A stretch of 54,255 nt of DNA from Candidatus Firestoneibacteriota bacterium (GTDB lineage Bacteria > Oederibacteriota > D2-FULL-39-29 > CAIOVX01). Made by a program: the position numbers and the translations under genes. Shown here one piece after another: positions 36,403 through 50,685 of the stretch. The notes beneath the pieces are model-generated. The model did not search any database, was not told the DNA's origin, and was given only the letters and a program-made list of their open reading frames with translations. Each line of letters starts with the position of its first letter. The first letter of the stretch is position 1. The DNA is taken from assembly GCA_903916325.1 (NCBI GenBank), contig CAIWWK010000156.1:1-54255 (forward strand). The letters run 5' to 3'.

Positions 36403-36403
36403 C

Positions 36404-37055: not shown

Positions 37056-38234
37056 ATGAAAAGAATATACTTAGACCACGCAGCCACTACCCCTGTGCAT
37101 CCGGAGGTTTTGGCGGCTATGACGCCTTACTTTACGGAGAAGTTCGGCAACCCTTCGACCATTTACTATTTTGGGCGCGAAGCGAAAGAAGGCATAGAAA
37201 TCGCAAGGGAGAAGTTCGCGAAAGCCATAAACGCCGATGTCTCGGAGATAGTTTTCACCAGCGGCGGAACGGAAGCGGATAATAACGCAATCATAGGGGC
37301 CGTCAGGGCTTCAGGCAGGAAAGCCGCGCATATAGTCACTTCAAAAATCGAACACCATGCCGTCCTTGAGACTTGCCATTTCCTTGAAAAGGAAGGGTGC
37401 AAAGTGACCTACCTGCCCGTTGACCGCGATGGGTTAGTTGACCCGGTGGAGGTCAAAAAGGCGCTGAATAAAGAAACGGTTATCGTCTCAATAATGTTCG
37501 CCAACAATGAAATCGGGAGCGTTCAGCCTGTCAGGGAAATCGGCGCTGTCTGCCGCGAGAACGGAGTGATTTTTCACACGGACGCGGTGCAAGCGCTCGG
37601 CAGCCTTCCGATAGATGTGGAAGCGCAAAACCTTGATTTGCTCTCTGTTTCCGCCCATAAACTCTACGGCCCGAAGGGTGTAGGAGCTCTTTATATCAGG
37701 AAAGGCGTGAAGTGCTCAAAACTGATGCACGGCGGCGAGCAGGAAAGAAGAAGAAGGGCGGGAACGGAAAATACAGCCGGGATAATAGGGTTCGGAAAGG
37801 CGGTGGAACTGGCGGTTGCCGCGCTGCCTGCGGAAAGCAAGCGGCTTTCGGCGCTCCGCGACGGAATGATAGCGAAGCTTATGAAGAAGATACCCGAAAT
37901 TAAATTGAACGGGCACGCGGTAAAGAGGCTGCCCGGAAACATTAACATCGCGGTCAAATACATAGAGGGTGAATCAATGCTTTTGAACCTGGATATGGAC
38001 GGCATCTGCGCCTCCACGGGCTCCGCCTGCACCTCGGGTTCCCTTGAACCGTCGCACGTGCTGTCCGCCATAGGCATTCCCCCCGAGCTGGCCCACGGTT
38101 CCATCAGGTTCTCGCTCGGAAAGTCCTCCACTAAAGAGGATATGGATTTCGTCGTTGAAAAATTCTCGGAAATCGTAGACAGGCTCAGGAAACTCTCCCC
38201 GCTTTACAAGGGGAACGGCTGCAAAATAAAATAA
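37056..38234 (+). CDS. nifS: Cysteine desulfurase (NifS/IscS family)
   Basis: 392 aa. Contains FTSGGTEADN, the PLP-lysine region SAHKLYGPKGVGALY, and the active-site loop STGSACTSG. Confidence 0.9.
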   Translation: MKRIYLDHAATTPVHPEVLAAMTPYFTEKFGNPSTIYYFGREAKEGIEIAREKFAKAINADVSEIVFTSGGTEADNNAIIGAVRASGRKAAHIVTSKIEHHAVLETCHFLEKEGCKVTYLPVDRDGLVDPVEVKKALNKETVIVSIMFANNEIGSVQPVREIGAVCRENGVIFHTDAVQALGSLPIDVEAQNLDLLSVSAHKLYGPKGVGALYIRKGVKCSKLMHGGEQERRRRAGTENTAGIIGFGKAVELAVAALPAESKRLSALRDGMIAKLMKKIPEIKLNGHAVKRLPGNINIAVKYIEGESMLLNLDMDGICASTGSACTSGSLEPSHVLSAIGIPPELAHGSIRFSLGKSSTKEDMDFVVEKFSEIVDRLRKLSPLYKGNGCKIK

Positions 38235-38250
38235 CTTTTGGAGGAAAACA

Positions 38251-38988
38251 ATGGAAGTAATAATAACAAATTCAGCGGATGAAATGTCAAAGAAAGGGGC
38301 TGAGCTTGTCGCGGCCGCGGTAAAAAAGAATCCTAAAGCCGTGCTCGGGCTGGCCACCGGCGGAACGCCGGTAAAGATGTACGCGGAACTCATAAAACTT
38401 TACAAAAGCGGCGCTCTGGACTTTAAAAAGGTAAGGTCATTCAACCTTGACGAGTATGTGGGGCTGCCGGGAACGCACGACCAGAGTTACAGGTGTTTTA
38501 TGAACGAAAACCTGTTTAACCATATAAACATTGACAAGAAGAACACCAATGTTCCCGACGGGCTCGCGAAGGACATAGAAAAATCCTGCGCGGAATACGA
38601 GGCGAAAATCAAGGCGTGGGGTGGCATAGACCTGCAGGTACTCGGCATAGGAAGCAACGGGCATATCGCGTTCAACGAGCCGCTTTCCGGCGCGATGTCT
38701 AAGACCAGAAAAGTGGCGATATCTCAGAGAACTATATCCGATAACGCGAGGTTTTTCAAGACAATGGATGAAGTTCCGAAAACCGCGGTAACTATGGGTA
38801 TCGGCACCATACTTGAGGCGAGAAAAATAGTATTGCTAGCCAGCGGCGGCAACAAAGCGGACGTCATAGCCGCGGCGGTGGAAGGCCCGGTGACCCAGCT
38901 GGTTCCGGCGAGTTTCCTTCAGCTTCACGCCGACACGGTTTTTGTCGTTGAAAAAGAGGCGGCTTCTAAACTAAAAGGGAAATATTAA
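38251..38988 (+). CDS. nagB: Glucosamine-6-phosphate deaminase
   Basis: 245 aa. Contains GLATGGTP, FNLDEYVGL and GIGSNGHIAFNEP. Confidence 0.9.
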   Translation: MEVIITNSADEMSKKGAELVAAAVKKNPKAVLGLATGGTPVKMYAELIKLYKSGALDFKKVRSFNLDEYVGLPGTHDQSYRCFMNENLFNHINIDKKNTNVPDGLAKDIEKSCAEYEAKIKAWGGIDLQVLGIGSNGHIAFNEPLSGAMSKTRKVAISQRTISDNARFFKTMDEVPKTAVTMGIGTILEARKIVLLASGGNKADVIAAAVEGPVTQLVPASFLQLHADTVFVVEKEAASKLKGKY

Positions 38989-39019
38989 TTACGCGGATGC
39001 GCAGTAAAGGCGGAGGACG

Positions 39020-39055
<36 letters not shown>

Positions 39056-39081
39056 TGGACCGATAGACCCCATGAGTACTT

Positions 39082-39113
39082 AATTAGCAATTAGCAATCA
39101 GTAATTAGTAATC
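39082..39113. repeat. Degenerate tandem heptamer AATTAGC/AATCAGT/AATTAGT x4.5
   Basis: AATTAGC AATTAGC AATCAGT AATTAGT AATC, read directly from the sequence. Confidence 0.85.
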
Positions 39114-39180
39114 CGCGGAGCGGCAGACCGATGCACAACAGCTTTAATAAATTTGCTTAATCTTATGGAGTGAATTGACA

Positions 39181-39495
39181 ATGTCAATTCGCCAAGGTGC
39201 ATCGGAGCGGAGCCGGCAGCGAGGCCAAATGCTAATCAATTGTCAGCGTGAAAGGTCCGAAATCGTCGCGTTCAGTACAGATATTGAAGAATACCGCATG
39301 GATTTACCAAAAGATATGCATATTACAAACCCAAATGGTATACATACTAATTCGGGTGGGAATTGGAATGCAGTATGGCAAGATTTCTTTAATTCATATG
39401 GCAATGGAACCCCATCTTCTAATGAAATCTTAGATAATATGAACAGTATGATTAATGATTTTGGTTTACAAGATTATGAATGGGGTGGAAAATGA
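39181..39495 (+). CDS. Small ORF, possible truncated polymorphic-toxin C-terminal tip (HNH/EndoVII-like tail)
   Basis: The C-terminal half reads DMHITNPNGIHTNSGGNWNAVWQDFF..TPSSNEILDNMNSMINDFGL. From memory, it resembles the tail of HNH-type toxin domains paired with Imm11. No upstream HH catalytic motif or delivery domain is present. Its ATGA overlap with the next gene suggests translational coupling. The real start is uncertain (ATG 39181 or ATG 39298). Confidence 0.35.
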   Translation: MSIRQGASERSRQRGQMLINCQRERSEIVAFSTDIEEYRMDLPKDMHITNPNGIHTNSGGNWNAVWQDFFNSYGNGTPSSNEILDNMNSMINDFGLQDYEWGGK

Positions 39496-40169
39496 GATTC
39501 TACATAATTACCTCTGACAGAGCTTTTCCACTGGCCGAATGGTCCGAGAAAATGAGCTACAGAACGACTATAAGGTGTGTGTCTAACCCGGGGCATCAAA
39601 GAGCCGGCGACAGACAAGACATATTAAGAATTAATGTGCTTTCCACAAAATACATCGATGTTATTTGGACATGGTATAGTGAATTATTATTCAGCGAGAA
39701 AATTGTGGAAATGTTTCGAAAGGAAAACATTACAGGCTACGTTGTATCTACAGTTGTTGTAGATAATGTCTTTAGTTCTGCTGAAAGACAGAATCTATTG
39801 CTAATCAACAAGAAGCCATGTGTGGTATCAGAAAAATACGATAATAATAATCAAAATATTATCGAAAAACTTTCAGAAATAAAGATTATTGGGAAGGGTG
39901 GTTTTGCTGATAAGCATACTGGAATACTTTTATTAGAGCAATGCAATGAATGTGGATATAAGAAATACACTCCCTTTAGAAATGGTATTTTTATTGATGA
40001 AAAGCAATGGGACGGTTCCGATATGTTTCGAGTAGAACCATTTGGATATGCAGTTGTTTCTGAGAGATTTAAGATGGTAGTAGAAAAGAACAAGATATTA
40101 AATATATGCTTCAGGGAAACAAAAGACATAATTCATCCATCAAGGCGAAACATTGGTAAGAATACTTGA
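39492..40169 (+). CDS. Imm11-like (DUF1629 / double-CXXCG family) immunity protein
   Basis: 225 aa. It has the N-terminus MRFYIITSD, a CNECG motif, and WDGSDMFRVEPFGYAVVSERFK near the C-terminus. This is recognised by recollection of the family, not by a search. The gene is AT-rich. Confidence 0.5.
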   Translation: MRFYIITSDRAFPLAEWSEKMSYRTTIRCVSNPGHQRAGDRQDILRINVLSTKYIDVIWTWYSELLFSEKIVEMFRKENITGYVVSTVVVDNVFSSAERQNLLLINKKPCVVSEKYDNNNQNIIEKLSEIKIIGKGGFADKHTGILLLEQCNECGYKKYTPFRNGIFIDEKQWDGSDMFRVEPFGYAVVSERFKMVVEKNKILNICFRETKDIIHPSRRNIGKNT

Positions 40170-40328
40170 AGGCTGAACAACCGCCTACAATGACTGTAAT
40201 GCCAGGAAAGAAGATAGTGTAACTTATTATACAATGACGTCTACGGTCGCAGTGTAATTGTAAAGCACTAAGAGGACAGCTGCCCCTGTTACTACTTATG
40301 ATATAAGTACTATTCACGGAAAAGAGTC

Positions 40329-40357
40329 TTGACAACCCTGGAATATTGACATATAAT
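40329..40357 (+). promoter_or_regulatory. Perfect consensus sigma70 promoter upstream of the AAA ATPase
   Basis: TTGACA (40329-40334), exactly 17 nt, TATAAT (40352-40357). Confidence 0.7.
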
Positions 40358-40390
40358 AATGGAAACGCTAACTCCAATAAGGCAGGTATA

Positions 40391-41539
40391 ATGGAACCAG
40401 CTATTCCAAGAATATTTAACCCTCCGCAAGGCGGATATTTCCTTTTCGGGCCAAGAGGTACAGGGAAAACCACATTGTTGAAACAAAGATACAGCGAGGC
40501 TCTTTGGGTTAACCTTCTGGAGCCGGATCTCTTCCGGCAGTTAAGCGCCAGGCCTGAAAGACTGAAGGAAATGGTAGAAGGGGCCGGAAAGAAAGTGGTT
40601 GTAGTAGATGAGATACAAAAGATCCCGGAGCTGATAGATGTTATTCACAAACTAATTGAAGACAACAAAGACGTTAAATTTATCCTTACAGGTTCAAGCG
40701 CGAGAAAGTTAAAATCGACGGGAGCCGGATTGCTGGGAGGCAGGCTTGCCAAACAGTCATTATACCCGTTTATGGCTTTTGAGCTGGGAGACAAATTCAA
40801 ACTTGAGCAGGTTCTTGAAACGGGGCTTGTGCCGGTTGTTTATTCATCCGCTGACAGGGCTGAATTTCTGAAAGCTTATGCCGCTATGTATGTGAAAGAA
40901 GAGGTTCAGGCTGAAGGTTTGGTGAGAAATATCGGCAGTTTTTCCAGGTTTCTTGAATCCGTAAGTTTCTCGCACGGTTCTGAATTGAATATCAGCAGTG
41001 TTGCCAGGGACTGCCAGGTTGAAAGAAAGACAGTTGAGGGATTTGTTAACATACTCGAAGATCTTTTGATAGCATATCGTATACCGGTTTTTCGGAAGAA
41101 GGCAAAACGGCAGGTTGTGTCGCACCCAAAGTTTTATTTGTTTGACACGGGGCTGTTTCGGGTATTGAGACCTTCCGGCCCGTTGGATGATACCGGAAGC
41201 ATCGAAGGCTGCGCCCTTGAAGGATTGGTTGCCCAGCATCTTATCGCATGGTGTTCTTACGGCGGCGCGCGGAGCAGTGTTTATTACCATGAAACAAAAT
41301 CAGGCAGTGAAGTGGATTTTGTTGTTTACGGTCAGAATTCATTCTTTGCAATTGAAGTAAAGAACAGCCGGAAGGTCCGACAGGAAGATCTGGTGCCTTT
41401 AAGAAACTTTATAGAAGACTATCCCGAGAGTAAAGGCATATTTTTATACAGAGGCAAAGAAAAACTAAAAATATCAAATATCTACTGTGTTCCGGTTGAT
41501 GAATTCCTTAGAACTCTTGAGCCAGGCAAGAACCCATAA
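40391..41539 (+). CDS. AAA+ ATPase of the AAA_14/DUF4143 type
   Basis: It has the Walker A motif GPRGTGKTTL and the Walker B motif VVVVDEIQK, with a C-terminal region typical of DUF4143 proteins. ATG 40391 follows AAGGCAGG. The track start at 40346 lies inside the promoter. Confidence 0.75.
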   Translation: MEPAIPRIFNPPQGGYFLFGPRGTGKTTLLKQRYSEALWVNLLEPDLFRQLSARPERLKEMVEGAGKKVVVVDEIQKIPELIDVIHKLIEDNKDVKFILTGSSARKLKSTGAGLLGGRLAKQSLYPFMAFELGDKFKLEQVLETGLVPVVYSSADRAEFLKAYAAMYVKEEVQAEGLVRNIGSFSRFLESVSFSHGSELNISSVARDCQVERKTVEGFVNILEDLLIAYRIPVFRKKAKRQVVSHPKFYLFDTGLFRVLRPSGPLDDTGSIEGCALEGLVAQHLIAWCSYGGARSSVYYHETKSGSEVDFVVYGQNSFFAIEVKNSRKVRQEDLVPLRNFIEDYPESKGIFLYRGKEKLKISNIYCVPVDEFLRTLEPGKNP

Positions 41540-41545
41540 ACAATA

Positions 41546-41578
41546 AAATACTGCGGCCTGAAGGCCGAGAGTATTTCA
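41546..41578 (+). terminator. Hairpin terminator candidate after the ATPase
   Basis: AAATACTGCGGCC-TGAA-GGCCGAGAGTATTT (bulged stem of about 12 bp) followed by TTTC. Confidence 0.5.
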
Positions 41579-41727
41579 TAATGTGAGTAATCTCTTTCTG
41601 TAGTATCCGGGGGATGTCGCCATTAACCGAGGCCCAATGCCAACAAAATGTCAGCGTGAAGAGTCTGGTACTGTTTCAGCTTTATGACGCTGATATTCCA
41701 GATGACCTTGGAAACGGAGAATAGATA

Positions 41728-43200
41728 ATGAAAAGATATGTTTTAAGGGTGTTTCTCTTTCTTACGGCGCTGTTTGTATTTGTTGCCGCCGCTTCTGCGG
41801 GCTCGGTTTACTTCGTTTCAACCTCAGGCAGTGACAGAACCGGCGATGGTTCAGAGTCGCGGCCGTTCGCCTCTATTATGAAAGCTGTTCTGGCGGTGCC
41901 GGATGACGGCTCCCGTATTCTCGTGGAACCCGGGACCTACAAAGGGACCTGCAGTATTGCCCGAGCCTTCAAGAACAGGCTTTTTGTAGAATCCAAAGAA
42001 CCTTACCGCGCCAGGCTCGTCAACCTCCCCGGCGGGATCGTTAAGGTATTATATATCGCCGGAAGCAATATCACTCTAAGCGGGTTTGAAATAACAAACG
42101 AAGGGGAGATCCCTCCGGATTATTCTTCGAAAAACGAGTACCTGGTCCAGATTACGGGGCCCGCGGCGGATATTACCGTCAATGACTGTATCCTCCACGA
42201 CAACTTTATTAATGATATGGTCAAGATAAACTCCGGCGCGGAACGGATATTGTTCAGCGGGAATGTGTGCTACAACCAGGGCAGAGACTTGCAGTATAAA
42301 AAGCCGAAAGGTTTTCAGCATATGGATATTAACACGGTAAGTTATGTTACAGTGCAGGATTGCATTTTCTTTAACAATTACAGGGACAACCGCTCAAAGA
42401 CCTGCAACGGCTCCTTCATAGTCTGCAAAAACTCGGAAAAAACTTTCCACACGCACGATAATCTTTTTCAGCGCAATATATTCTTGAATTGGCAGGGCCC
42501 GTCCGACCAGGCTATGCTGTTGTTCGGCGAGGACACTCACGCCATGATTTACGGCCTCGTGAACGGCACGGCCCAGAACAACCTTTTCATTATGAATGAC
42601 ACGGGTTTGGGCGGAAGCGGAGCTTTCACCGTGAAAGGCTGCAAGGACATTATCTTCCGCGCCAATACGGTCGTGGGAAACGCCTTCAACGGCAGGACCT
42701 GGCCGTTTGCGTTCAGGGTATGCACAGAAAAAGGCGAACTGACGGTGGACGGGGTGGGGTTCTTCAATAATGTATTTGCCAGCACGGACGGCAGGATGAC
42801 CAAATTCAACTTTGGTGATGACGCGCAATCCGAAAATGTCTCCTATGACGCAAACTGCTACTGGAACAACGGCAAAGCTATACCGGTTGATCCCGGTTCC
42901 AATGTCCATTTTAAAGCCGTGTCGGTTGACGCGCGCGCGGTAACTTCAGACCCTATGCTTCCCAAGCCGGGCGCTCCGCCTGTTCTGCCTGAATGGGACA
43001 GCGCGAAGCTAAAGTTCGCTTCAGGCGCCGGCACAATAAGGGAAGAGTTTGTGCGTCTCGTAAACGGATACGGGAAGGTACCTCAAGGCAGCGGGCTTGC
43101 CGGCAAAGCCGTAAGAAATAATATGCCCGAAGACGACATCCTCGGAAAAAAGCGGAAAGCTGCTCCGGATATCGGCTGTTTTGAACTTGAGGCGAATTAA
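41728..43200 (+). CDS. Secreted right-handed parallel beta-helix protein (pectate-lyase-fold / DUF1565-like)
   Basis: It has a signal peptide, then VYFVSTSGSDRTGDGSESRPFASIMKAV. Repeated PbH1-like rungs follow (VNDCILHDN, VQDCIFFNN, FQRNIFLN, QNNLFIMN, FRANTVVGN, FFNNVFAS). It ends in ...APDIGCFE. Confidence 0.7.
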   Translation: MKRYVLRVFLFLTALFVFVAAASAGSVYFVSTSGSDRTGDGSESRPFASIMKAVLAVPDDGSRILVEPGTYKGTCSIARAFKNRLFVESKEPYRARLVNLPGGIVKVLYIAGSNITLSGFEITNEGEIPPDYSSKNEYLVQITGPAADITVNDCILHDNFINDMVKINSGAERILFSGNVCYNQGRDLQYKKPKGFQHMDINTVSYVTVQDCIFFNNYRDNRSKTCNGSFIVCKNSEKTFHTHDNLFQRNIFLNWQGPSDQAMLLFGEDTHAMIYGLVNGTAQNNLFIMNDTGLGGSGAFTVKGCKDIIFRANTVVGNAFNGRTWPFAFRVCTEKGELTVDGVGFFNNVFASTDGRMTKFNFGDDAQSENVSYDANCYWNNGKAIPVDPGSNVHFKAVSVDARAVTSDPMLPKPGAPPVLPEWDSAKLKFASGAGTIREEFVRLVNGYGKVPQGSGLAGKAVRNNMPEDDILGKKRKAAPDIGCFELEAN

Positions 43201-43293
43201 CCCCGCCGAGTCAACCTGCGGAAGCTATATCCTAATAGTTGCGCCACTCCTGTCTCAGATAAATGAAAGAAAGCCGCAGCCGGTATTATTGTC

Positions 43294-43322
43294 TTGCGAA
43301 CTTCCGCTCCAAATAATATAAT
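43294..43322 (+). promoter_or_regulatory. Sigma70-like promoter for the 43355-48270 gene pair
   Basis: TTGCGA (43294-43299), 17 nt, TATAAT (43317-43322). Confidence 0.6.
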
Positions 43323-43354
43323 TTAAAGGTTGCTATTCCTATAACGGGGGACGA

Positions 43355-44809
43355 ATGAAAAGAATCCTAATCCCGATACTGCTCCTGACTGCCGCTTCAT
43401 TTGCTTTTGCCCAAACACTGCCTGAAATTGTCGAGAAAGGAAAGGCAAAATATGAAGACCTGATAGTAGATGTCGGAAGTTTTGATGTTTTTTACGCGGT
43501 CGCGAAAGAAATTGGGAACCAGGTCTTAACTTTATCGAGAGACAATAAATATGAAGAAATCATTGAAGTTTTCGCGAAAGATGCGAATATGCAAATAGCC
43601 GAATATTGCGCGGGAAAAAAGAGCAGAGCGCAGGTTACTGATAAGGAAGCCTTAACTTCAACCGTGTACACCAGGTTTGTAAAAATATATAAAGGGGACG
43701 AGGAATATTTGTTCCCGGCTCCGAGCGATAAAGAGCAAAGAGTGGAACTTGAATTAATATGGTTGTGGTGGAAAAAGATTGGCCCCGGCTCACAACTGCA
43801 GGGAACGGTTAAGGTGGACGGCTTGGAGTGCTACAAAATACTTGTTAATCCGGTCAACGAATACTATTTTTATATCGATAAAGGGACGTTCAATATCAAA
43901 AAAATGGAAAGAAAGGATAAGGCCTTATACCTGAAAAGCGACAAAGCCGCGCAAGAAACGATAATTTTCGGAGCATTTTATCCAATGAGGAAGCAGGGTG
44001 ACAAGGGCGCTGTTTTCCGGTCAAGGAAGGAAGCAGAGGAAGCTTTCAAGCAGAAGTCTTGCTTTCCTAATACTTTCAGGAGAAAAGTGTTTAATGACAA
44101 GACTTCTGCCGTGCAGGAGACTCCATATATGATGTTTCCCGCGGAAATTGCAAACGTAAAACATGAAGCTCTGGATGAAACTGTGTTTGACAAAACGCGT
44201 TGGGAGTCATTTAAACAGGGTTCTTTCTCAAAATTCATTGAAGATGTAAATAATGAAGGCAAGTTGCCTGCCCCGATAGAAATAGACAAAGCAAAAGAAT
44301 TAGTCCAGATATATGTTAATCTGACAGAATTCAAAAAAGAAACCCAAACATTTCCGGAAAGGACAATTAATAGCGGCGGGCGCACCATAACAATTAAATA
44401 CGCCAATAGAGATAATTATTCCTGCAAGACGGAAAGCGAAGGGATAACCCCCACAGTCAAAATCGGCAAGGATTCGCTGAGTATGATTTTCGGCCAGGAA
44501 GTTAAGGTGGAAAGGATAGTATTGCAGGGAACCGGTTTGTATGAGACAAATATATACGGGGCAAAAATGTCAGATACAAACACTTTCGCAAACTTTGAAC
44601 TTGCCTATGTTAATATTCGTAATGAATCAAAATCCTTCAGAAAATACGAAAATAATTCAAGCCGGTCTATGGAGTTAAAAGAGAGTTTCAAAGCAACAGC
44701 GATAAGTTTTAATTCCCTGCCTGCCAAGTCCGCTTTTGACAAAAACTATGGTTTGCCTATGGAGTTTATCGTAAGAATCGCGATTTGGGGCAAGGCGGCT
44801 TCCAGGTGA
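43355..44809 (+). CDS. Secreted hypothetical protein (LolA-like segment plus C-terminal beta-sandwich-like segment)
   Basis: 484 aa with the signal peptide MKRILIPILLLTAASFAFAQ. The segment WWKKIGPGSQLQGTVKVDGLECYKILV is paralogous to WWWQFGTEFKIVGTDKFLDYECYVITG in the next gene. The fold assignments are guesses. Confidence 0.6.
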   Translation: MKRILIPILLLTAASFAFAQTLPEIVEKGKAKYEDLIVDVGSFDVFYAVAKEIGNQVLTLSRDNKYEEIIEVFAKDANMQIAEYCAGKKSRAQVTDKEALTSTVYTRFVKIYKGDEEYLFPAPSDKEQRVELELIWLWWKKIGPGSQLQGTVKVDGLECYKILVNPVNEYYFYIDKGTFNIKKMERKDKALYLKSDKAAQETIIFGAFYPMRKQGDKGAVFRSRKEAEEAFKQKSCFPNTFRRKVFNDKTSAVQETPYMMFPAEIANVKHEALDETVFDKTRWESFKQGSFSKFIEDVNNEGKLPAPIEIDKAKELVQIYVNLTEFKKETQTFPERTINSGGRTITIKYANRDNYSCKTESEGITPTVKIGKDSLSMIFGQEVKVERIVLQGTGLYETNIYGAKMSDTNTFANFELAYVNIRNESKSFRKYENNSSRSMELKESFKATAISFNSLPAKSAFDKNYGLPMEFIVRIAIWGKAASR

Positions 44810-44811
44810 AA

Positions 44812-47800
44812 ATGAACAGAAGGCATACAAAAACATCGGGTTTTCGTTTTCATTTTATTCTTCTGTTGTTTTTGTGTGTGTTGCAGACGGGCGCATTATG
44901 GGCCGCCCGGCCGATAGATGCGATCTTTATTCCGGTCAAAGACAAACCTTCCACGCTGGAGACCCCATTTTACGATGGCTATATGAAAGTAAAGATATCA
45001 AACTTGTTCGGATTGGATGTTAAATATTCCCGTTCGGTGAAAGTCTCAAACCTTATTCTGGAATGGGACAGCGGAGCAATAACTCAGCCTGTCAATCTTG
45101 AATTTAGTTGTTTTGACAGTCTGGGAACGGAGACTTTGATGAAGGCGGCAATCCCTGCCAATAGCACTATTTTTACAATAGAAATAAACAGGGAAGCTTT
45201 GAACCTCAAGATGCGCGATAACGTCTCTTCCGGTGCGGCCGGCTATAGCCGTATAAAAAATGGGCTTAAAGCCGTAAAGGTTTCGGCGACTCTCATTGAG
45301 CCTGAAGTCCCGGCAGGAATGTTGCCTGCATCGGCTGTTTCCCCGGCTGCGGTCTCGGCGCCGGGAAACATAGACCGCAATTTCAGAATCTCGCTTCAGC
45401 GGCCGTTGAAGCAGGCCTGCGCTGTTCTTCTTGACAGAGAGGTGACCGTTACCTGTCAGGAGAAATACGATGAAAGGAAATATATATTCTCGGAAAAAGT
45501 CTTGATATCTAAAATAATAATGTTTTTCCCGGGAATATTAACGAGGTCACCGTACGGCGGTTTAATGTCATCAAACGGCTGTAACGTGATAGTATCCTGT
45601 TCAAATGATTCCGGCAATCTCAAGGAGAAGGAAACTTTTTCGGTAGACGGGAAAACGTCTTTAACTGTTTCCCTTGAACAGGTGACTGACTGTATTGTGC
45701 TAAGGGATAAACCGGAGTTTGATAAAGACGGAAAGCGGTTCCCGCCGCAGGGCTTGAAATGCTTGTCCGAAGGACGGATTGTGTTTCAAGGTTCAGTTAA
45801 GCCTCTGGAACTTAATTCCACAGCGGTGACGTCGGGTAAGGTGAAAAACGCGTTGAACCTAAGCAAGCAGGAATCGGACGCCTTCATTGAGAGAGTGAAA
45901 AAGAAAGCGATTCTGACAAAAGACGATTCATTCTTTGAAATAAGATGCGAGTCCTATCCTCGGAACAGAAAGTTCTACGAAGGCCGTATCTATAGGATGG
46001 CGAAGGACCTTGACTGCGGATACTACTACTGCAAAGATTTAGTTGTTACATTTGTTAATGGCAGAGAATCTCCGATCTTTCCCGGCTCAGTAGATATAGA
46101 AAAGGGGCTGGCTTCGGTTTCGGATGAGTTGAAGAATTCGGGATGGGACAAGCTCGGAAATATTTCAGGCCCGGAATTGGCTGGCTGGTGGTGGCAGTTT
46201 GGGACAGAGTTTAAGATTGTAGGAACAGATAAATTCCTTGATTATGAGTGCTATGTGATTACCGGCAAAGGATTGAAGGACGCCGGTGTGGAAGTCTGGG
46301 TGGAAAAAGAGAGCGGAAAATTAAGGAAGCTGATAAGGCAGGTTGTCACAAAAGGCGCTTTTCAAACGGGACTGCAGGCAACCGAGTACTATAACTACTT
46401 TTCAGGAAAGAACGGTTTTGAGTTTCCAGGATTGGTGCAATACAACAGCGGACTGAAAATCTGGTGCTGGCCGGAAAAAAAAGCTTCGCTGGCTGATATT
46501 GGTTTTTCAGGCAGGGAATCTGACTCTCCGGTAAAAACGCGCGCAATCAACAGGAAAAACGAACTCTACCAAAAGGAAGAGCAGGAACGGGAAGAACGCG
46601 CGGACGATAACGCGCGCGATACCAGGTATAACACAAGAAGTCTTTCTCTTTCCCGGTACGTGGACCCGCTTACGGGGATCTGGTTTTTTATTCCGGAAGG
46701 TTTTAAAAACAAAGGCAACTACAGCAATTGTTTTGAATATACCGGCGAGACGAAGCAGAACGGCGCGAAGACCGGAGGAACAAAAGTCTCGGATTCGGGC
46801 GCCGCCTCAAAGAAAGGCGTCAAAGACCATTTGATAATCACAAAGTTCTATTCAACAAAGGATTTTGAAGCGCTTGCTGCCCAGATCAAGCAGGAAAACG
46901 AGAAGAAGAATCCTGAGACAACCATAAAGTATTCCGAAAAGAGGCAGATAAAGGAGCATGAAGCGATAATACTGGATATTGCAGGCCCTGACGACTACGG
47001 GATAAGCTCAAAGACAAAAGAATTATTCGTCCGGAAAGGCAATGCCGTAATAGATATAGAGCTGGTTTATTACAAAATGAGCGACGAAACAGCCGGCAAG
47101 ATAATTGACAAAATAATTGAGAAGCTGCAATTCGGCGAGTCGAGTATAATAGCCCATTCTTTTGGAAGCGCCCGGCTTGGCGAGCTGGCGGAATTAATGG
47201 GGGACAATAAGGACAAAGAAGCCCTGGAAATGATAAATTCGGAACTAAAGAAAAACCCCCGGGATGGCGAGCTGCTTTACAACGAAGGAGTCCTGCTCGG
47301 GAAGCAGGGCGATAAAGCGGAAGCGTCACGGCTTATAAAGGCGGCTTTTGAGAACGGTTACTGTGATTTTTCCGGCCTTTTTGAAACAAAGGAAGGAAAG
47401 AGGATGGTCGACGACGCTGTCGCGCAGGAAGTGATGAAGGATCGGGCAAAGTATTATGGGCAAGGGCGCAAAGTCCTGCTGGAGAAAATAAAGAAAGAAC
47501 TGGCCAGCTATTATGAAGTCAAGATGAAAGAAAGCAATATAATTATGTACACCGACATAAGAGATAACGGCATACTTGACATAATAAATGAAGCCTTAAA
47601 GACCACCGGAGAATTAGCCAGGAACAACATAAAGGCGGCAAATACCCCGTATCCGGTAATTTGGGTCTTGTCCAATAAGAACGAAGTGAACGAGGCTATG
47701 ATCGGAAGCCTGACCGGCAGCAGCGGCTACTTCAGCGGCTTGTTTGTCCCCGCGTACGGGATGCTCTTTACCGACGCGGACAGCGGGTTTGGAACGGTTG

Positions 47801-48270
47801 TGCACGAATATATGCACGCCATACACAGGGCGGACTCCGCCGAAAGCTTTGAAAAGCACCCCCGCTGGCTTTCTGAAATGCTCAGCACTTCTGTGGAAGA
47901 ACTGGAATGGAACGAAGCAAAGCAGAAGCCGGAAATTAAATATTTCTCGGGTAGATATCCCGGGCTGCTGGACGCTATTATTTACGACGATGTCCTGCCG
48001 ATTGAAAAGCTCGTCAGCATGACCGACAAGGACCTTATGTCGGACAAGAATATAGATGTTTTTTACGCCACGGTGCGCTATCTTGGCCTTTATCTTTCGG
48101 CAAACAATCTCACCGCGAAATTCTACGAAGAGTATAAGAAAGACTACCGGGAAGACGCAACGGGTAGATTGGCGCTTGAAAAAGTCCTAAACACGAACCT
48201 GAAAGACTTTCAAAGTGTATGGGAAAATTGGGCTGTTACAACGCCTTTAATAAAATTAACTAAGAAGTAA
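44812..48270 (+). CDS. Large secreted multidomain protein with C-terminal HExxH (DUF1570-like peptidase MA) domain
   Basis: 1152 aa from ATG 44812, which lies 2 nt after the previous stop. It has a signal-like N-terminus FHFILLLFLCVLQTGALWA. It has a TPR-like stretch, then VVHEYMHAIH (47803-47817 encodes HEYMH), followed by PRWLSEMLSTSVE. Confidence 0.7.
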   Translation: MNRRHTKTSGFRFHFILLLFLCVLQTGALWAARPIDAIFIPVKDKPSTLETPFYDGYMKVKISNLFGLDVKYSRSVKVSNLILEWDSGAITQPVNLEFSCFDSLGTETLMKAAIPANSTIFTIEINREALNLKMRDNVSSGAAGYSRIKNGLKAVKVSATLIEPEVPAGMLPASAVSPAAVSAPGNIDRNFRISLQRPLKQACAVLLDREVTVTCQEKYDERKYIFSEKVLISKIIMFFPGILTRSPYGGLMSSNGCNVIVSCSNDSGNLKEKETFSVDGKTSLTVSLEQVTDCIVLRDKPEFDKDGKRFPPQGLKCLSEGRIVFQGSVKPLELNSTAVTSGKVKNALNLSKQESDAFIERVKKKAILTKDDSFFEIRCESYPRNRKFYEGRIYRMAKDLDCGYYYCKDLVVTFVNGRESPIFPGSVDIEKGLASVSDELKNSGWDKLGNISGPELAGWWWQFGTEFKIVGTDKFLDYECYVITGKGLKDAGVEVWVEKESGKLRKLIRQVVTKGAFQTGLQATEYYNYFSGKNGFEFPGLVQYNSGLKIWCWPEKKASLADIGFSGRESDSPVKTRAINRKNELYQKEEQEREERADDNARDTRYNTRSLSLSRYVDPLTGIWFFIPEGFKNKGNYSNCFEYTGETKQNGAKTGGTKVSDSGAASKKGVKDHLIITKFYSTKDFEALAAQIKQENEKKNPETTIKYSEKRQIKEHEAIILDIAGPDDYGISSKTKELFVRKGNAVIDIELVYYKMSDETAGKIIDKIIEKLQFGESSIIAHSFGSARLGELAELMGDNKDKEALEMINSELKKNPRDGELLYNEGVLLGKQGDKAEASRLIKAAFENGYCDFSGLFETKEGKRMVDDAVAQEVMKDRAKYYGQGRKVLLEKIKKELASYYEVKMKESNIIMYTDIRDNGILDIINEALKTTGELARNNIKAANTPYPVIWVLSNKNEVNEAMIGSLTGSSGYFSGLFVPAYGMLFTDADSGFGTVVHEYMHAIHRADSAESFEKHPRWLSEMLSTSVEELEWNEAKQKPEIKYFSGRYPGLLDAIIYDDVLPIEKLVSMTDKDLMSDKNIDVFYATVRYLGLYLSANNLTAKFYEEYKKDYREDATGRLALEKVLNTNLKDFQSVWENWAVTTPLIKLTKK

Positions 48271-48352
48271 AGCCAGAAGTTCGGAAGATTAGAGGATATG
48301 GGGGCTACATTCTTATGAGCCCGAGCCTCTGAACATCTGAGCATCAGGCCTC
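48271..48352. repeat. Imperfect inverted repeat of the GAAGTTCGGAAG..AGAGG family
   Basis: CAGAAGTTCGGAAGATTAGAGG ... CCTCTGAACATCTGAGCATC is related to 25727-25755. Confidence 0.45.
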
Positions 48353-48403
48353 AAATACATGGGATAGAGACTATTTTGCATCTTAGGAGGGAACAAGAGG
48401 GGC

Positions 48404-48432
48404 TTGATGTTAATGCGCTAATAGTATATAAT
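48404..48432 (+). promoter_or_regulatory. Sigma70-like promoter for the vapBC-like pair
   Basis: TTGATG (48404-48409), 17 nt, TATAAT (48427-48432). Confidence 0.55.
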
Positions 48433-48473
48433 GACAGCATAGGTGTTATAGCACGGGAAGGGAGACAGCCAAT

Positions 48474-48731
48474 ATGAAGAAGATAAAGACTATGGTGTAT
48501 ATAAATGCTGATTATAAAAAGCGTGCCCTTGCGTTAAGAAGTATTGCCCATAAAAGTATGAGCTCCTTGGTGGACGAAGGGCTGGAAGCTGTCTTTATGA
48601 AATACACTAACACGCCTAAAACCATAAAGGAAGCGGTCGCTTCCACATACGGAGCAAGTAACACAATAGAATTCAAACGCGATGAATTCAACAAGGATTT
48701 TGAAAAACGCGAAAAAAGAAGAGGTAAATAA
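48474..48731 (+). CDS. Antitoxin, ribbon-helix-helix-like
   Basis: 85 aa. The N-terminal part MVYINADYKKRALALRSIAHKSMSSLVDEGLEAV fits a strand-helix-helix pattern. The tail is basic. The TAATG overlap links it to the downstream PIN gene. Confidence 0.6.
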   Translation: MKKIKTMVYINADYKKRALALRSIAHKSMSSLVDEGLEAVFMKYTNTPKTIKEAVASTYGASNTIEFKRDEFNKDFEKREKRRGK

Positions 48732-49138
48732 TGGAAGCTCGCTCGAAAGCAGGCCCTGAGAAACAAAAATATCTTATAGACAGCGATGTTCTAATTAATC
48801 ATATTCATAAGAAAAGAGATACATTGGTGAAACTTATTGAGAAAGATAATATAGAGGTGTCCGCAAGCGTGCTGAATAAGATAGAGTTGTACCGGGGCGC
48901 GAGGAATGAAAAGGATAAAGTTATAATAGACGATCTTTTACGGTATTTCTTTATTTACGAAGTAGAAGAGCTGATAGCTGACAAAGTTTATGAGTTATGC
49001 TCAATAAACAAGCTGGGCTCTTTAGGGCCTATGGATTTGATGATTGCGGCCACCTGTTTAGTAAATAATTTGGTTTTAGTCACACATAATCTGAAACATT
49101 TCAGCCCGGTTCCGGAGCTAAAGATTTACAAGGAGTAA
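48731..49138 (+). CDS. vapC: PIN-domain toxin (VapC-like)
   Basis: 135 aa. It has YLIDSDVLINH (first acidic residue) and MDLMIAATCLVNNLVLVTHNLKHF (distal Asp context), typical of VapC. Confidence 0.75.
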   Translation: MEARSKAGPEKQKYLIDSDVLINHIHKKRDTLVKLIEKDNIEVSASVLNKIELYRGARNEKDKVIIDDLLRYFFIYEVEELIADKVYELCSINKLGSLGPMDLMIAATCLVNNLVLVTHNLKHFSPVPELKIYKE

Positions 49139-49200
49139 AGAGGATAAACAAAGGCGGCATGTCAAAGCCAGGTGTAACTGCGATGCTTCTGGAAAAACCC

Positions 49201-49235
49201 TTGCCCCCTCCCCTTATGATGAATGGGAGGGGGCA
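49201..49235. repeat. Perfect 12-bp-stem hairpin TTGCCCCCTCCC-CTTATGATGAAT-GGGAGGGGGCAA
   Basis: The reverse complement of the left arm equals the right arm exactly. It shares a core with 16187-16214. Confidence 0.85.
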
Positions 49236-49249
49236 ATTAGGTAAAACAA

Positions 49250-49295
49250 AGAGATTACACGGTTTAGCTGCTTTAATCCGCGTAATCTCTTTTTC
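49250..49295. terminator. Bidirectional terminator candidate between vapC and the convergent phosphohexomutase gene
   Basis: AGAGATTAC ... GTAATCTCT form a 9-bp stem. It is flanked by AAAACAA on the left and TTTTTC on the right. Confidence 0.55.
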
Positions 49296-49317
49296 TAATC
49301 TGCTTAATCAGTGTACT

Positions 49318-50685
49318 TTAGATGTTCATCAATGCTTTAACTTTCTTTTTGTAATCCGCCACCAGTTTCTTAGATTTTGCCTCTGATTTGGATTCCGCGA
49401 AAATCCTGATGATGGGTTCCGTGTTGGACGGCCTTATATTTACCTTGACCTCTCTGGCGGAAAGAGAGATGCCGTCTATAGTTTCCAGCTTAAACTTGCC
49501 CGCCTCGCCTTTGAGTCTCTCCATTATTTTGAACCCGTTGTTCTTGGTGAGGTTGATCTTGTCTTTCACGATAAAGTATTTGGGAATATCCGCCGAAAGA
49601 GCCCTTATGGACTTGCCGGATTCCGCCATGTACTGAAGTACCAGCGCGATGCCGATCAGCGAATCCCTTCCCGGGTGAACGAGCGGGTACATTACTCCGC
49701 CGTTGCCTTCGCCGCCTATAATCCCGTTCTCTTTAAGCATTGCTTCGGCCACGTGAACCTCGCCGACCTTTGTCCTGATGAGTTTTGACTTGTATTTTCT
49801 GCAGATATCTTCCATCGCTATGGTGGTTGACATGTTTACAACAGCGGTCTTCCCCGGGTTCTTCCTGAGGATGTAATCCGAGGTCAGGCAGACGGAGTAT
49901 TCCTCGCCGATATAATGGCCGGTGTGGTCTATCAGCGCCAGCCTGTCAGCGTCCGGATCCTGCGCGAAGCCTATGTCGGAATTAGTGGATTTGACCTTGG
50001 CGCAGAGTTCTTTGAGGTTGACGATGGTCGGTTCCGGATTGTGCGCGAAGTTTCCGTTCGGCTCGCAGTTTATGCATTCAACATCGCAGCCAAGCTCTGA
50101 GAGCAGCGAGGGAGTAATGACGGCCCCCGCTCCGTTGCAGGAATCAAGCACAACCTTGAAGCGCTTGCTTCTTATCAGATCTACATCAACAATATCCAGG
50201 ACTTTCTTGATATGAATTTTTATACCATCATAGTCGTTGTTGACAATGCCCAGTCCGTCCCACGCGACCGTTCTGAAAGCGTTCTGGTAATAGGCGTTGA
50301 GCATCTGCTTGCCTTCCTCGTCGTTCAGGAAGACGCCGTTGCTTTTCAGGAATTTAAGGGCGTTCCACTGAACGGGGTTATGACTGCCTGTTATTATGAC
50401 CCCGCCGGCGGCTTTAAGTTCTTCCACCATGAGCGCGCAGGTGGGCGTTGTGGCAATATCCAGGTCCATTACCTCGCAGCCGGTTGAAAGCAGTGCCCCA
50501 AGGACGGAGTGTTTTATCATAAGGCCTGAAATTCTGGTATCCCGCCCGACTACCACGCGCCCTCCGTTAAGATATGTTCCGAAGGCCATACAAAGCCGGG
50601 TTACTACCTCAGGCGTAAGTGTCTCCCCGATAACTCCGCGGACGCCGGAAACGCCTATCATCAGAGTGCTTTTTGCTGTGCTCAT
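49318..50685 (-). CDS. Alpha-D-phosphohexomutase (phosphoglucosamine mutase / PMM-PGM type)
   Basis: 455 aa. It has GVRGVIGE, the phosphoserine loop TGSHNP, the metal loop DPDADR and the sugar loop GGEGNGG. Confidence 0.85.
   Translation of the reverse strand: MSTAKSTLMIGVSGVRGVIGETLTPEVVTRLCMAFGTYLNGGRVVVGRDTRISGLMIKHSVLGALLSTGCEVMDLDIATTPTCALMVEELKAAGGVIITGSHNPVQWNALKFLKSNGVFLNDEEGKQMLNAYYQNAFRTVAWDGLGIVNNDYDGIKIHIKKVLDIVDVDLIRSKRFKVVLDSCNGAGAVITPSLLSELGCDVECINCEPNGNFAHNPEPTIVNLKELCAKVKSTNSDIGFAQDPDADRLALIDHTGHYIGEEYSVCLTSDYILRKNPGKTAVVNMSTTIAMEDICRKYKSKLIRTKVGEVHVAEAMLKENGIIGGEGNGGVMYPLVHPGRDSLIGIALVLQYMAESGKSIRALSADIPKYFIVKDKINLTKNNGFKIMERLKGEAGKFKLETIDGISLSAREVKVNIRPSNTEPIIRIFAESKSEAKSKKLVADYKKKVKALMNI

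What the first reader, a model, noticed from the sequence alone, without database searches (positions are those of the whole stretch)
39140..49309. Integrase-less accessory segment of about 10 kb between two amino-sugar genes, bounded by a 13-bp near-identical direct repeat
nagB (GlcN-6-P deaminase) and the convergent phosphohexomutase are functionally related, yet about 10 kb of non-housekeeping genes separate them. Those genes are a toxin fragment with an immunity gene, a DUF4143 ATPase, three secreted proteins and a VapBC pair. GC is variable and clearly lower at the left end (14-21 G+C per sampled 60-nt line against 33 in a sampled core line). The edges carry GCTTTAAT..AATTTGCTTAATC (39130-39152) and GCTTTAAT..AATCTGCTTAATC (49269-49309) in direct orientation. 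By rough estimate, a 12/13 match between two spacers of about 180 nt is unlikely by chance (expected on the order of 0.02 to 0.05). This resembles att-like scars of an insertion, but no recombinase remains.
Basis: partly seen in the sequence, partly recalled or inferred. Interest (0 to 1): 0.6.

Follow-up and report, generated by a model that had tools for sequence, protein, structure and literature searches.

The report
Strain-variable gene islet, not att-bounded
About 10 kb of accessory genes (a dead toxin stub with its immunity gene, a candidate phage-defence ATPase, secreted proteins and a VapBC pair) really does sit between nagB and a phosphohexomutase gene in an uncultured Firestonebacteria genome, but the 13-base "direct repeat" is not an insertion scar: both copies belong to repeat families scattered through this genome.

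Summary
The accessory segment is real. A congener (G002) has nagB and the phosphohexomutase gene 130 bp apart. A second (G001) keeps only the spacer ends. A near-identical strain contig (binned in G003) lacks the two largest genes. The segment is a compositional mosaic: toxin stub and immunity gene 35-39% GC, vapBC 38%, sec2 41%, sec1 51%, genome 48.9%.

They do not bound anything. The breakpoints are 38992/49247 against G002, 39280/49176 against G001 and 43215/48361 against G003.

- **Right copy:** a variant unit of a REP-like palindromic family (AATC[CT]G[CT]GTAATC, 75 copies in the genome). It lies beyond the native hairpin behind the mutase gene, and that hairpin is also present in the empty site.
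- **Left copy:** it lies in the loop of a genus-specific 78-nt structured repeat with 11-28 copies per genome.
- **Chance:** random pairs of real spacers from this genome share a match this good 4% of the time.

There is no integrase, tRNA, or plasmid or phage match. My best reading is a non-self-mobile, strain-variable competition/defence islet, turned over by illegitimate indels and probably carried between strains by homologous recombination in its conserved flanks. It is ordinary in kind.

The parts
38251..38988 (+). nagB (glucosamine-6-phosphate deaminase), the conserved left flank
   Evidence: Pfam Glucosamine_iso, E=1.4e-25. It is 88% identical at protein level in G002, directly next to the mutase gene.
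38992..49247 (+). DNA present in the window but absent from congener G002 (10.26 kb), i.e. the accessory segment including its repeat-filled spacers
   Evidence: blastn homology to G002:C60 stops at 38991 and resumes at 49248. G002 has 51 unrelated nt in its place.
39020..39115 (+). Two heptamer arrays, (GAAGACA)x5 and an AATTAGC/AATCAGT-type array; both are dispersed repeat modules
   Evidence: Read directly from the sequence. There are 20-41 other matches in the genome per 10-nt bin. The copy number differs in G001 and G003.
39128..39205 (+). 78-nt structured dispersed repeat (outer stem CGATGCAC/GTGCATCG, inner covarying hairpin). The left 13-mer lies in its loop, and it also supplies the GGAG and the ATG of the toxin-stub ORF.
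   Evidence: Alignment of 5 copies with 5 covarying pairs. Fold z-score -3.4. The covariance model finds 11, 20, 28 and 19 copies in the four genomes of the genus and none in four other genera. No Rfam match.
39150..39162 (+). Left 13-mer, AATTTGCTTAATC
   Evidence: The identical 13-mer with 44 nt of flanks at 91% identity is at C128:2177-2220. Other copies of the repeat read TTTGCTTAAG at this position.
39207..39280 (+). A further dispersed module, with copies at C125:428-503 and inside the islet at 41628-41665. It ends where homology to G001 ends.
   Evidence: (D4).
39181..39495 (+). Toxin stub: the C-terminal part of a DUF2380/SitA6-type (AHH-nuclease-like) toxin domain, lacking the HH motif. 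Its N-terminal ~30 codons are encoded by the dispersed repeats.
   Evidence: Pfam DUF2380, 33.1 bits (cut-off 26.3), profile positions 119-179 of 187. NCBIfam SitA6, positions 143-202 of 209. It aligns (E=8e-13) with the tip of an RHS-type protein that has THHLLP where the window has RERSEI.
39480..40169 (+). Immunity gene (double-CXXCG family-like); it overlaps the stub's stop codon
   Evidence: Pfam Gmx_para_CXXCG, E=4e-5, 23.5 bits against a cut-off of 25. A 35%-identical homologue lies directly behind the full RHS-tip toxin in L038. GC 35%.
40346..41539 (+). AAA_14 + DUF4143 ATPase (PADLOC candidate defence family PDC-S01) behind a perfect TTGACA-17-TATAAT promoter match
   Evidence: Pfam. 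PADLOC PDC-S01, E=6e-55. Promoter-like site at 40329-40357.
41728..43200 (+). sec1: secreted right-handed beta-helix protein with native-like GC (51%)
   Evidence: Weak DUF1565 match. Homologues carry Beta_helix domains and include a Ca. Firestonebacteria protein at 46% identity. GC.
43215..48361 (+). 5.1-kb indel (sec2 + sec3), present in the window and absent from an otherwise ~100% identical contig binned in G003
   Evidence: blastn breakpoints. Junction sequences show no repeat. Flanks are 99-100% identical.
43355..44809 (+). sec2: secreted protein with no family match, GC 41%
44785..48270 (+). sec3: a large secreted protein. The N-terminal ~680 aa have no relatives. The C-terminal ~350-470 aa form a TPR + HExxH (peptidase-MA-like) domain that is widespread elsewhere.
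   Evidence: Only itself found in the 5.8-billion-protein search. 448 representatives match residues ~690-1161. Several of them carry TPR, Peptidase_MA_2 and PDZ domains. The window's own Peptidase_MA_2 match has E=0.038, below threshold.
48474..49138 (+). VapBC-like type II toxin-antitoxin pair (85-aa antitoxin candidate and 135-aa PIN toxin, overlapping by 1 nt)
   Evidence: PIN, E=1.7e-11. VapC NCBIfam models match below their cut-offs. GC 38%.
49239..49309 (.). REP-like palindromic unit behind the mutase gene, acting as a terminator-like hairpin, plus the right 13-mer (49297-49309). It is native and also present in the empty site of G002.
   Evidence: Inverted repeat I1. Present in G002, G001 and G003 with AATCTGCGCAATC, AATCTGCTTAATC and AATCTGCGTAATC respectively. 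More than 40 similar copies in the genome, and 75 matches to AATC[CT]G[CT]GTAATC.
49318..50685 (-). Phosphohexomutase (four PGM_PMM domains), the conserved right flank
   Evidence: It is 96% identical at protein level in G001 and G002.

Best explanation
The segment is a strain-variable chromosomal islet that cannot move by itself. It occupies the nagB|phosphohexomutase junction of one genus of Candidatus Firestonebacteria.

It is a mosaic of at least three modules:
- a decayed polymorphic-toxin stub with an intact immunity gene, plus a PDC-S01-type ATPase;
- a lineage-typical beta-helix protein (sec1);
- a recently gained or lost pair of secreted proteins (sec2, sec3), plus a VapBC pair.

Shown: the modules come and go by indels whose breakpoints carry no repeats.

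Inferred: the whole block spreads between related strains by homologous recombination in the conserved flanks (iscS-nagB on one side, the mutase gene and yvcK on the other).

Inferred function: protection against neighbours' AHH-type nuclease toxins (immunity gene), candidate phage defence (ATPase, VapBC) and surface or extracellular functions (secreted proteins).

The two 13-mers are incidental. The right one is a slightly deviant unit of a REP-like palindrome that forms the native hairpin behind the mutase gene and predates the islet. The left one lies in the loop of a genus-specific 78-nt structured repeat that fills the spacer after nagB.
For: - Empty site: in G002 nagB and the mutase gene are 130 bp apart on a 170-kb contig.
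- Nested variants: G001 lacks 39280-49176 and the G003-binned contig lacks 43215-48361. No junction carries a direct repeat.
- The same 10-kb arrangement with both flanks appears in three independent metagenome assemblies at 99.6-99.95% identity.
- Mosaic GC and tetranucleotide outliers.
- The native hairpin lies between the cargo and the right 13-mer, and is present in G002.
- The right unit belongs to a 75-copy family. The left 13-mer lies inside a repeat with 11-28 copies per genome.
- Empirical chance of such a match between real spacers is 0.042.
- No island integrase, no tRNA, and no plasmid or phage match.
- Identity to the G003 contigs is about 99-100% from ~37300 to ~49050, against 76-91% on neighbouring G003 contigs.
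- The toxin stub lacks the HH motif that the full RHS-tip homologue has. SitA6 toxins are described as AHH nucleases (PMC8546572).
Against: - Direction of events is not proven. G002 could have lost everything, and G001 could be either a pre-insertion state or a deletion.
- The homologous-recombination inference rests on MAG contigs. G003 holds two different alleles of the same mutase segment (~99% and ~91% identical to the window in the overlap 49966-50106), so the near-identical contigs may simply come from a co-binned strain of the window's own species.
- A sibling contig (ENA, no DNA held) has an IS3-family transposase immediately left of the immunity gene, so transposition may contribute at this locus.
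- No expression or function data exist for any gene.
Confidence: 0.75

Rival explanations
1. The island entered in one step by site-specific recombination at a 13-bp att core, the integrase has since been lost, and the two 13-mers are attL and attR.
For: - There is a 12/13 direct match between the two spacers.
- G002's empty site carries one related unit, AATCTGCGCAATC.
- The segment is accessory and has low GC.
Against: - The geometry is wrong. The 48-nt native hairpin that lies left of the unit in the empty site lies left of the right copy in the window, so the cargo ends 50 nt before that copy.
- About 160 nt absent from G002 separate nagB from the left copy.
- Both copies are parts of multi-copy repeat families.
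- The T that creates the match is absent from G002 and G003 at the right copy.
- The empirical probability is only 0.04.
- The content is a compositional mosaic with nested indels, not a single block.
- There is no integrase and no tRNA.
Confidence: 0.04
2. IS or transposon activity built the islet. An IS3-family element (or the Y1/RAYT-like transposases of the genome acting on the REP-like repeats) brought in or rearranged the modules.
For: - An ENA contig with the identical immunity protein has IS3-type orfA/orfB (HTH_Tnp_1 + rve) directly to its left, and a 32-aa ORF in place of the 104-aa stub.
- The genome has three Y1_Tnp genes.
- Dispersed repeat modules sit at both margins and in the 41540-41665 spacer.
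Against: - There is no transposase, terminal inverted repeat or target duplication in the window's copy.
- G000 has a single rve hit, on another contig.
- No DNA of the IS-bearing contig was available, so its junctions are unknown.
Confidence: 0.1
3. Nothing was inserted. The gene set is ancestral to the genus, and G002 and G001 are deletion derivatives (differential loss at a decaying locus).
For: - The locus was already remodelled. Other genera carry pta-ackA-glmU-like-acp-acpS here; all four genomes of this genus lack the GlmU-like gene, and pta and ackA gave no match in G000.
- G001 retains both spacer ends at its genome-typical 88-90% identity.
- sec1 has native GC and Firestonebacteria relatives.
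Against: - The toxin stub/immunity pair (35-39% GC), vapBC (38%) and sec2 (41%) are compositional outliers.
- The sec3 N-terminal 680 aa have no relatives among 1.8 billion representatives.
- The sec2-sec3 indel lies between ~100% identical flanks, so it is recent.
- The nearest immunity homologues are only 35-36% identical and come from unrelated metagenome contigs.
Confidence: 0.1
4. This is an assembly or binning artefact: the contig is chimeric and the island does not really lie between nagB and the mutase gene.
For: - The genome is a fragmented MAG (295 contigs, 5.5% contamination).
- Many contigs break in the repeat-rich left spacer.
Against: - Three independent JGI assemblies contain the nagB end, the island and the mutase gene collinearly at 99.6-99.95% identity, one of them on a 72.6-kb contig.
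- G003:C160 also spans both flanks.
Confidence: 0.01

Closest known systems
Strain-variable chromosomal islets or 'integration hotspots' between conserved core genes, turned over by homologous recombination of the flanks (as described for defence islands and hotspots in enterobacteria and Pseudomonas; from my own knowledge)
   Same: - It lies between two conserved core genes.
- Its content differs among close relatives, including an empty state.
- Its cargo is immunity, toxin-antitoxin and candidate defence genes.
- It has no integrase and a mosaic composition.
   Different: - The host is an uncultured candidate phylum.
- Only four congeneric MAGs were available, so hotspot status rests on few genomes.
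- Half of the cargo is secreted proteins of unknown role.
Orphan toxin-tip/immunity modules of polymorphic toxin systems (Rhs/CdiA orphan arrays; myxobacterial SitA6/SitI6)
   Same: - A C-terminal toxin-domain remnant is directly followed by, and overlaps, an intact immunity gene.
- The homologous full domain is found as the tip of an RHS-type protein followed by the homologous immunity gene.
   Different: - There is no full-length rhs, cdi or sitA gene upstream.
- There is no lipoprotein signal.
- The stub lacks the HH motif and is fused to a dispersed repeat that supplies its start.
- The immunity match to Gmx_para_CXXCG is just below the Pfam cut-off.
REP/BIME elements and REPINs (palindromic extragenic repeats, mobilised by RAYT Y1 transposases)
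   Same: - The right 13-mer belongs to a short palindromic unit repeated about 75 times.
- The units are intergenic and often lie behind convergent genes, forming terminator-like hairpins.
- Y1_Tnp genes exist in the genome.
   Different: - The unit sequence (TAATCYGCGTAATC with a T-rich linker) is unrelated to enterobacterial REP.
- No link between these units and the Y1 transposases was tested.
tRNA- or gene-targeted integrative islands with att direct repeats
   Same: An accessory block of low GC, absent from a relative.
   Different: - There is no integrase.
- There is no tRNA.
- The repeats are not at the junctions.
- The content is nested and mosaic.

Membership tests
Integrative island bounded by att direct repeats | Direct repeats lie exactly at the junctions between inserted and native DNA | tested here: not met
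   The junctions against G002 are 38991/38992 and 49247/49248. The 13-mers are at 39150 and 49297.
Integrative island bounded by att direct repeats | A site-specific recombinase (integrase) in or next to the island | tested here: not met
   The only PF00589 hits in the genome are two Xer-like genes (C156:6502-7002 and C216). None lies in 38992-49247.
Integrative island bounded by att direct repeats | An empty site with a single att copy contiguous with both flanks | tested here: not met
   G002 has one related unit (11/13). However, its left neighbour, the native hairpin, stays with the right copy in the window, and the left copy has no G002-like left flank.
Integrative island bounded by att direct repeats | An excised circular form or junction reads | not testable with these tools
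Polymorphic-toxin orphan module (SitA6/DUF2380 toxin + CXXCG immunity) | Toxin-domain homology | tested here: met
   Pfam DUF2380, 33.1 bits against a cut-off of 26.3, covering only profile positions 119-179. BLASTP to the RHS-tip protein P0005, E=8e-13.
Polymorphic-toxin orphan module (SitA6/DUF2380 toxin + CXXCG immunity) | Catalytic HH motif and an N-terminal delivery part (an intact toxin) | tested here: not met
   There is no HH in the 104-aa ORF; P0005 has THHLLP at the aligned place. The upstream frame is closed by stops. It is therefore a stub, not a toxin.
Polymorphic-toxin orphan module (SitA6/DUF2380 toxin + CXXCG immunity) | A cognate immunity gene immediately downstream | tested here: inconclusive
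   Adjacency and overlap are met. The homologue P0002 follows a full toxin tip. The Pfam Gmx_para_CXXCG score of 23.5 is below the cut-off of 25, and there is no NCBIfam hit.
VapBC type II toxin-antitoxin | A PIN-domain toxin preceded by a small overlapping antitoxin gene | tested here: met
   PIN, E=1.7e-11, above the cut-off. The 85-aa ORF overlaps it by 1 nt. The antitoxin has no family match, and the VapC NCBIfam scores are below their cut-offs.
PADLOC candidate defence system PDC-S01 | A match to the PDC-S01 protein models | tested here: met
   E=6.1e-55, plus six further PDC-S01 models. Defence activity of this family is only a candidate and was not tested here.
REP/BIME-like extragenic palindromes (right 13-mer) | A short palindromic unit present in many copies in intergenic DNA | tested here: met
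   75 matches to AATC[CT]G[CT]GTAATC, 36 of them the exact AATCTGCGTAATC. Copies aligned. Arms 79% complementary (I1).
REP/BIME-like extragenic palindromes (right 13-mer) | An associated RAYT (Y1) transposase | tested here: inconclusive
   Three Y1_Tnp genes in G000 and 1-3 in the congeners. No link to the repeats was examined.

The most novel reading that the evidence does not exclude
The genus-specific repeats would be the actual substrates of an integrase-less cassette turnover at this hotspot. These repeats are the 78-nt structured element, the module repeated at 39220-39257 and 41628-41665, and the REP-like palindromes. They sit at both margins of the islet and at the one internal spacer where composition switches. 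The genome's Y1/RAYT-like transposases, or repeat-mediated recombination, would do the cutting and joining. The 78-nt element would also donate a ribosome-binding site and start codon to incoming promoter-less fragments, as it does for the toxin stub.
Probability: 0.1. Interest if true: 0.6.

Novelty: new member of a known kind. Interest (0 to 1): 0.25.

Why it matters
The report removes a false lead. In repeat-rich genomes such as these Firestonebacteria, short "direct repeats" at island edges are expected from dispersed repeat families and should not be read as att sites without checking the empty-site geometry.

It also documents, for an uncultured candidate phylum, a small hotspot where immunity, toxin-antitoxin, candidate defence and secreted-protein genes are exchanged among close strains. 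One 5-kb indel is caught between virtually identical flanks. The orphan immunity gene suggests that these bacteria face RHS-type AHH-nuclease toxins in their habitat.

None of this is new in kind.

Tried and rejected
- **Rfam:** a scan of 38000-50500 at E<=5 gave no match, so the 78-nt element is not a known RNA family.
- **sec2 against sec3:** BLASTP gave no significant similarity (best E=0.04), so I could not confirm that they are paralogues.
- **Pfam, NCBIfam and PADLOC for sec2, the sec3 N-terminus and vapB:** nothing found.
- **PDB sequence search with sec3:** it found only TPR repeats at residues ~750-856.
- **Plasmid and phage collections:** no match to the 10-kb cargo.
- **tRNA scan of the whole window:** none.
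- **Repeats or microhomology at the three pairs of breakpoints:** none seen.
- **ENA contigs carrying the immunity gene, including the IS3-bearing variant, and the 83%-identical sec1 homologue:** gene tables only, no DNA, so the junctions could not be read.
- **G003 as evidence of inter-species transfer:** I considered this and downgraded it. The bin holds two alleles of the same mutase segment, so the near-identical contigs may come from a co-binned strain.

Full report
**What is in the sequence.** The window is one whole contig (C156) of a 2.24-Mb, 295-contig MAG with 48.9% GC. A near-identical contig of a related bin is named Candidatus Firestonebacteria.

Between nagB (38251-38988, +) and a convergent four-domain phosphohexomutase gene (49318-50685, -) lie these genes:
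- a 104-aa ORF matching only the C-terminal third of DUF2380/SitA6;
- a 225-229-aa gene with a near-threshold match to the double-CXXCG family;
- an AAA_14/DUF4143 ATPase that matches the PADLOC candidate defence family PDC-S01 (E=6e-55);
- three proteins with signal-like N-termini (sec1 490 aa, sec2 484 aa, sec3 1161 aa);
- a PIN-domain gene (vapC) preceded by a small overlapping ORF (vapB).

The two 13-mers exist at 39150-39162 (AATTTGCTTAATC) and 49297-49309 (AATCTGCTTAATC), each preceded by GCTTTAAT.

**Is the 12/13 match more than chance?**
- With mononucleotide shuffles of the two spacers, a 13-nt match with at most one mismatch arises in 1.6% of trials, or 2.2% if either orientation is allowed.
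- With random pairs of 180-nt pieces of 354 real intergenic stretches of this genome, it arises in 4.2%.

**The segment is accessory.** I searched 40 relatives with the mutase protein, fetched the loci and mapped the window's genes onto them.
- **G002** (same genus, a 170-kb contig): nagB and the mutase gene are adjacent, 130 bp apart. DNA homology to the window stops at 38991 and resumes at 49248.
- **G001** (same genus): a 420-bp spacer made of the window's left ~290 nt and right ~140 nt. It lacks 39280-49176.
- **Contig C160, binned in G003:** it has the stub, immunity gene, ATPase, sec1 and vapBC but lacks 43215-48361 (sec2 + sec3). It also has a different 124-nt piece in place of the window's 49227-49244.
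- None of the three pairs of breakpoints shows a direct repeat or clear microhomology.
- Three independent JGI assemblies contain the window's full arrangement with both flanks at 99.6-99.95% identity, so it is not an assembly artefact.

**The locus in other genera.** In three other genera of the order, the nagB-mutase interval holds housekeeping genes: pta, ackA, a GlmU-like hexapeptide protein, an acyl carrier protein and acpS. All four genomes of the window's genus lack the GlmU-like gene, and pta and ackA gave no match in G000. The nagB|mutase adjacency is therefore a derived deletion junction, not an old functional pairing interrupted by an island.

**Why the 13-mers are not att or duplication scars.**
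- **Right side.** The stretch 49239-49301 is an imperfect palindrome (28-nt arms, 79% complementary). G002, G001 and G003 all carry it directly behind the mutase gene. It is native DNA, and the cargo ends to its left at about 49247. The 13-mer follows it, 8 nt before the mutase stop codon. Its sequence is AATCTGCGCAATC in G002 and AATCTGCGTAATC in G003, so the T that makes the 12/13 match is absent from both at this position.
- **The right unit is a repeat family.** More than 40 similar copies are scattered over the contigs. AATCTGCGTAATC occurs 36 times and AATC[CT]G[CT]GTAATC 75 times.
- **Left side.** About 160 nt absent from G002 separate nagB from the 13-mer. The 13-mer lies in the loop of a 78-nt element (39128-39205) with an outer stem CGATGCAC/GTGCATCG and an inner hairpin. 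The hairpin changes by compensatory substitutions between copies: GAATTGAC/GTCAATTC, GCAGCGTC/GACGCTGC and GCAACGAC/GTCGTTGC.
- **The left element is also a repeat family.** A covariance model built from five copies finds 11, 20, 28 and 19 copies in the four genomes of the genus, including tandem arrays in G001. It finds none in four genomes of other genera.
- **Origin of the left 13-mer.** The copy at C128 has the identical 13-mer within 44 nt at 91% identity. Most copies read TTTGCTTAAG there. The left 13-mer therefore came with a dispersed repeat.
- **Other att signatures are missing.** The left spacer also holds two heptamer arrays and another module, all multi-copy. The only tyrosine recombinases of the genome are two Xer-like genes. 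The window has no tRNA. The cargo matches no plasmid or phage record.

**What the cargo is.**
- **Toxin stub.** It aligns (E=8e-13) with the tip of an RHS-type protein from an unrelated metagenome contig (L038). That protein ends in ...THHLLPVAF...GIHTGPENWNKLWGEFF and is followed, with a 4-nt overlap, by a 35%-identical homologue of the window's immunity gene. The window's ORF keeps the GIHT...NWN..W..FF part but has no HH. Its first ~30 codons, its GGAG and its ATG lie in the dispersed repeats, and other copies have no ATG at that place. SitA6 toxins are described as AHH nucleases (PMC8546572). This is a dead stub with an intact orphan immunity gene.
- **sec1.** It belongs to a beta-helix family with Firestonebacteria relatives.
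- **sec3.** Its N-terminal ~680 residues have no relatives among 1.8 billion representatives. Residues ~690-1161 belong to a widespread TPR + HExxH family whose members often end in a PDZ domain. The peptidase-MA match of the window's own protein is below threshold.
- **sec2.** It matches nothing, and I could not confirm that it is a paralogue of sec3.

**Composition is a mosaic.** By gene, GC is 39% for the stub, 35% for the immunity gene, 44% for the ATPase, 51% for sec1, 41% for sec2, 46% for sec3 and 38% for vapBC. The flanks are 50-53%. The 39001-41000 window is at the 0.3rd GC percentile and the 99.2nd tetranucleotide-distance percentile of the genome. Dispersed repeats occur at both margins and in the ATPase|sec1 spacer, where composition switches, but not in the other internal spacers. 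This fits several separate acquisitions.

**How it moves (inferred).**
- The G003-binned contigs C226 and C160 are about 99-100% identical to the window from ~37300 to ~49050, apart from the repeat-rich spacers. Neighbouring G003 contigs are 76-91% identical.
- One reading is that the block with its flanks was exchanged by homologous recombination.
- The other is that these contigs belong to a co-binned strain of the window's own species. G003 holds two alleles of the same mutase segment, which favours at least some strain mixing.
- On either reading, the sec2-sec3 indel lies between virtually identical flanks and is therefore recent.
- An ENA contig with the identical immunity protein has an IS3-type transposase immediately to its left and a 32-aa ORF in place of the stub. 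No DNA was available for it, so IS activity at this border in sibling strains remains a lead.

**Verdict.** The accessory segment and the 13-mers are real, but the repeat is neither significant nor at the boundaries. The "integrase-less accessory segment" reading stands. The "att-like scars" reading does not.

The islet is an ordinary example of a strain-variable competition/defence hotspot, in an unusual and repeat-rich phylum.

Noticed in passing
window 39128-39205; also G000 C49:1932-2009, C53:83-160, C81:1467-1544, C225:4434-4512; G001:C245:154-529: A genus-specific 78-nt structured repeat: an outer 9-bp stem, a conserved ATGGAGTG, and an inner 10-bp hairpin that covaries between copies. 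It occurs 11-28 times per genome in four congeners and in none of four other genera tested. It is always co-oriented with the flanking genes. In G001 it forms a tandem array of five units with a ~75-nt period. There is no Rfam match.
   Followed up: partly
window 49239-49309, and more than 40 other places in G000 (e.g. C202:1425-1479, C55:26418-26444): A REP-like palindromic family built from TAATCYGCGTAATC units joined by a TCTTTTTC linker. There are 75 unit matches in the genome. The genome also has three Y1_Tnp (IS200/RAYT-like) genes (C216, C254, C72), but no link between them and the repeats was examined.
   Followed up: partly
window 36387-37045: The 213-aa membrane-protein ORF (36404-37045) between the recN-like gene and iscS is absent from G002, which has 223 unrelated nt there. 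This is a second small indel 2 kb left of the islet.
   Followed up: no
L025 2842-7650, L026 8635-13367, L027 9450-11545 (other genera): In other genera of the order, the nagB-mutase interval holds pta, ackA, a 416-420-aa GlmU-like hexapeptide protein, a second acyl carrier protein and an AcpS-like gene. All four genomes of the window's genus lack the GlmU-like gene. In G000, pta and ackA gave no tblastn match.
   Followed up: partly
ENA sample ERZ1426676, 3886-nt contig (no DNA held): A sibling contig encoding the identical immunity protein has IS3-type orfA/orfB and a ClpB_D2-small fragment to its left instead of nagB. A 32-aa ORF replaces the 104-aa toxin stub.
   Followed up: no
ENA sample ERZ1426815, 5545-nt contig (no DNA held): An 83%-identical sec1 homologue sits between a DUF3857/transglutaminase-like gene and a HAD hydrolase. 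The contig has partial ORFs at its ends in the same orientations as nagB and the mutase gene. It may be yet another allele of the same hotspot.
   Followed up: no
G003 contigs C160/C226 versus C84/C97: The G003 bin holds two alleles of the same mutase segment (window 49966-50106), one ~99% and one ~91% identical to the window. The bin mixes strains or lineages, so comparisons with it need care.
   Followed up: partly
window 49201-49236: A GC-rich hairpin (TTGCCCCCTCCCCTT / AATGGGAGGGGGCAA, 93% complementary) lies behind vapC. It is shared with G001 but not with G002, and a similar 28-nt stretch lies at 16187-16214 of the window.
   Followed up: no
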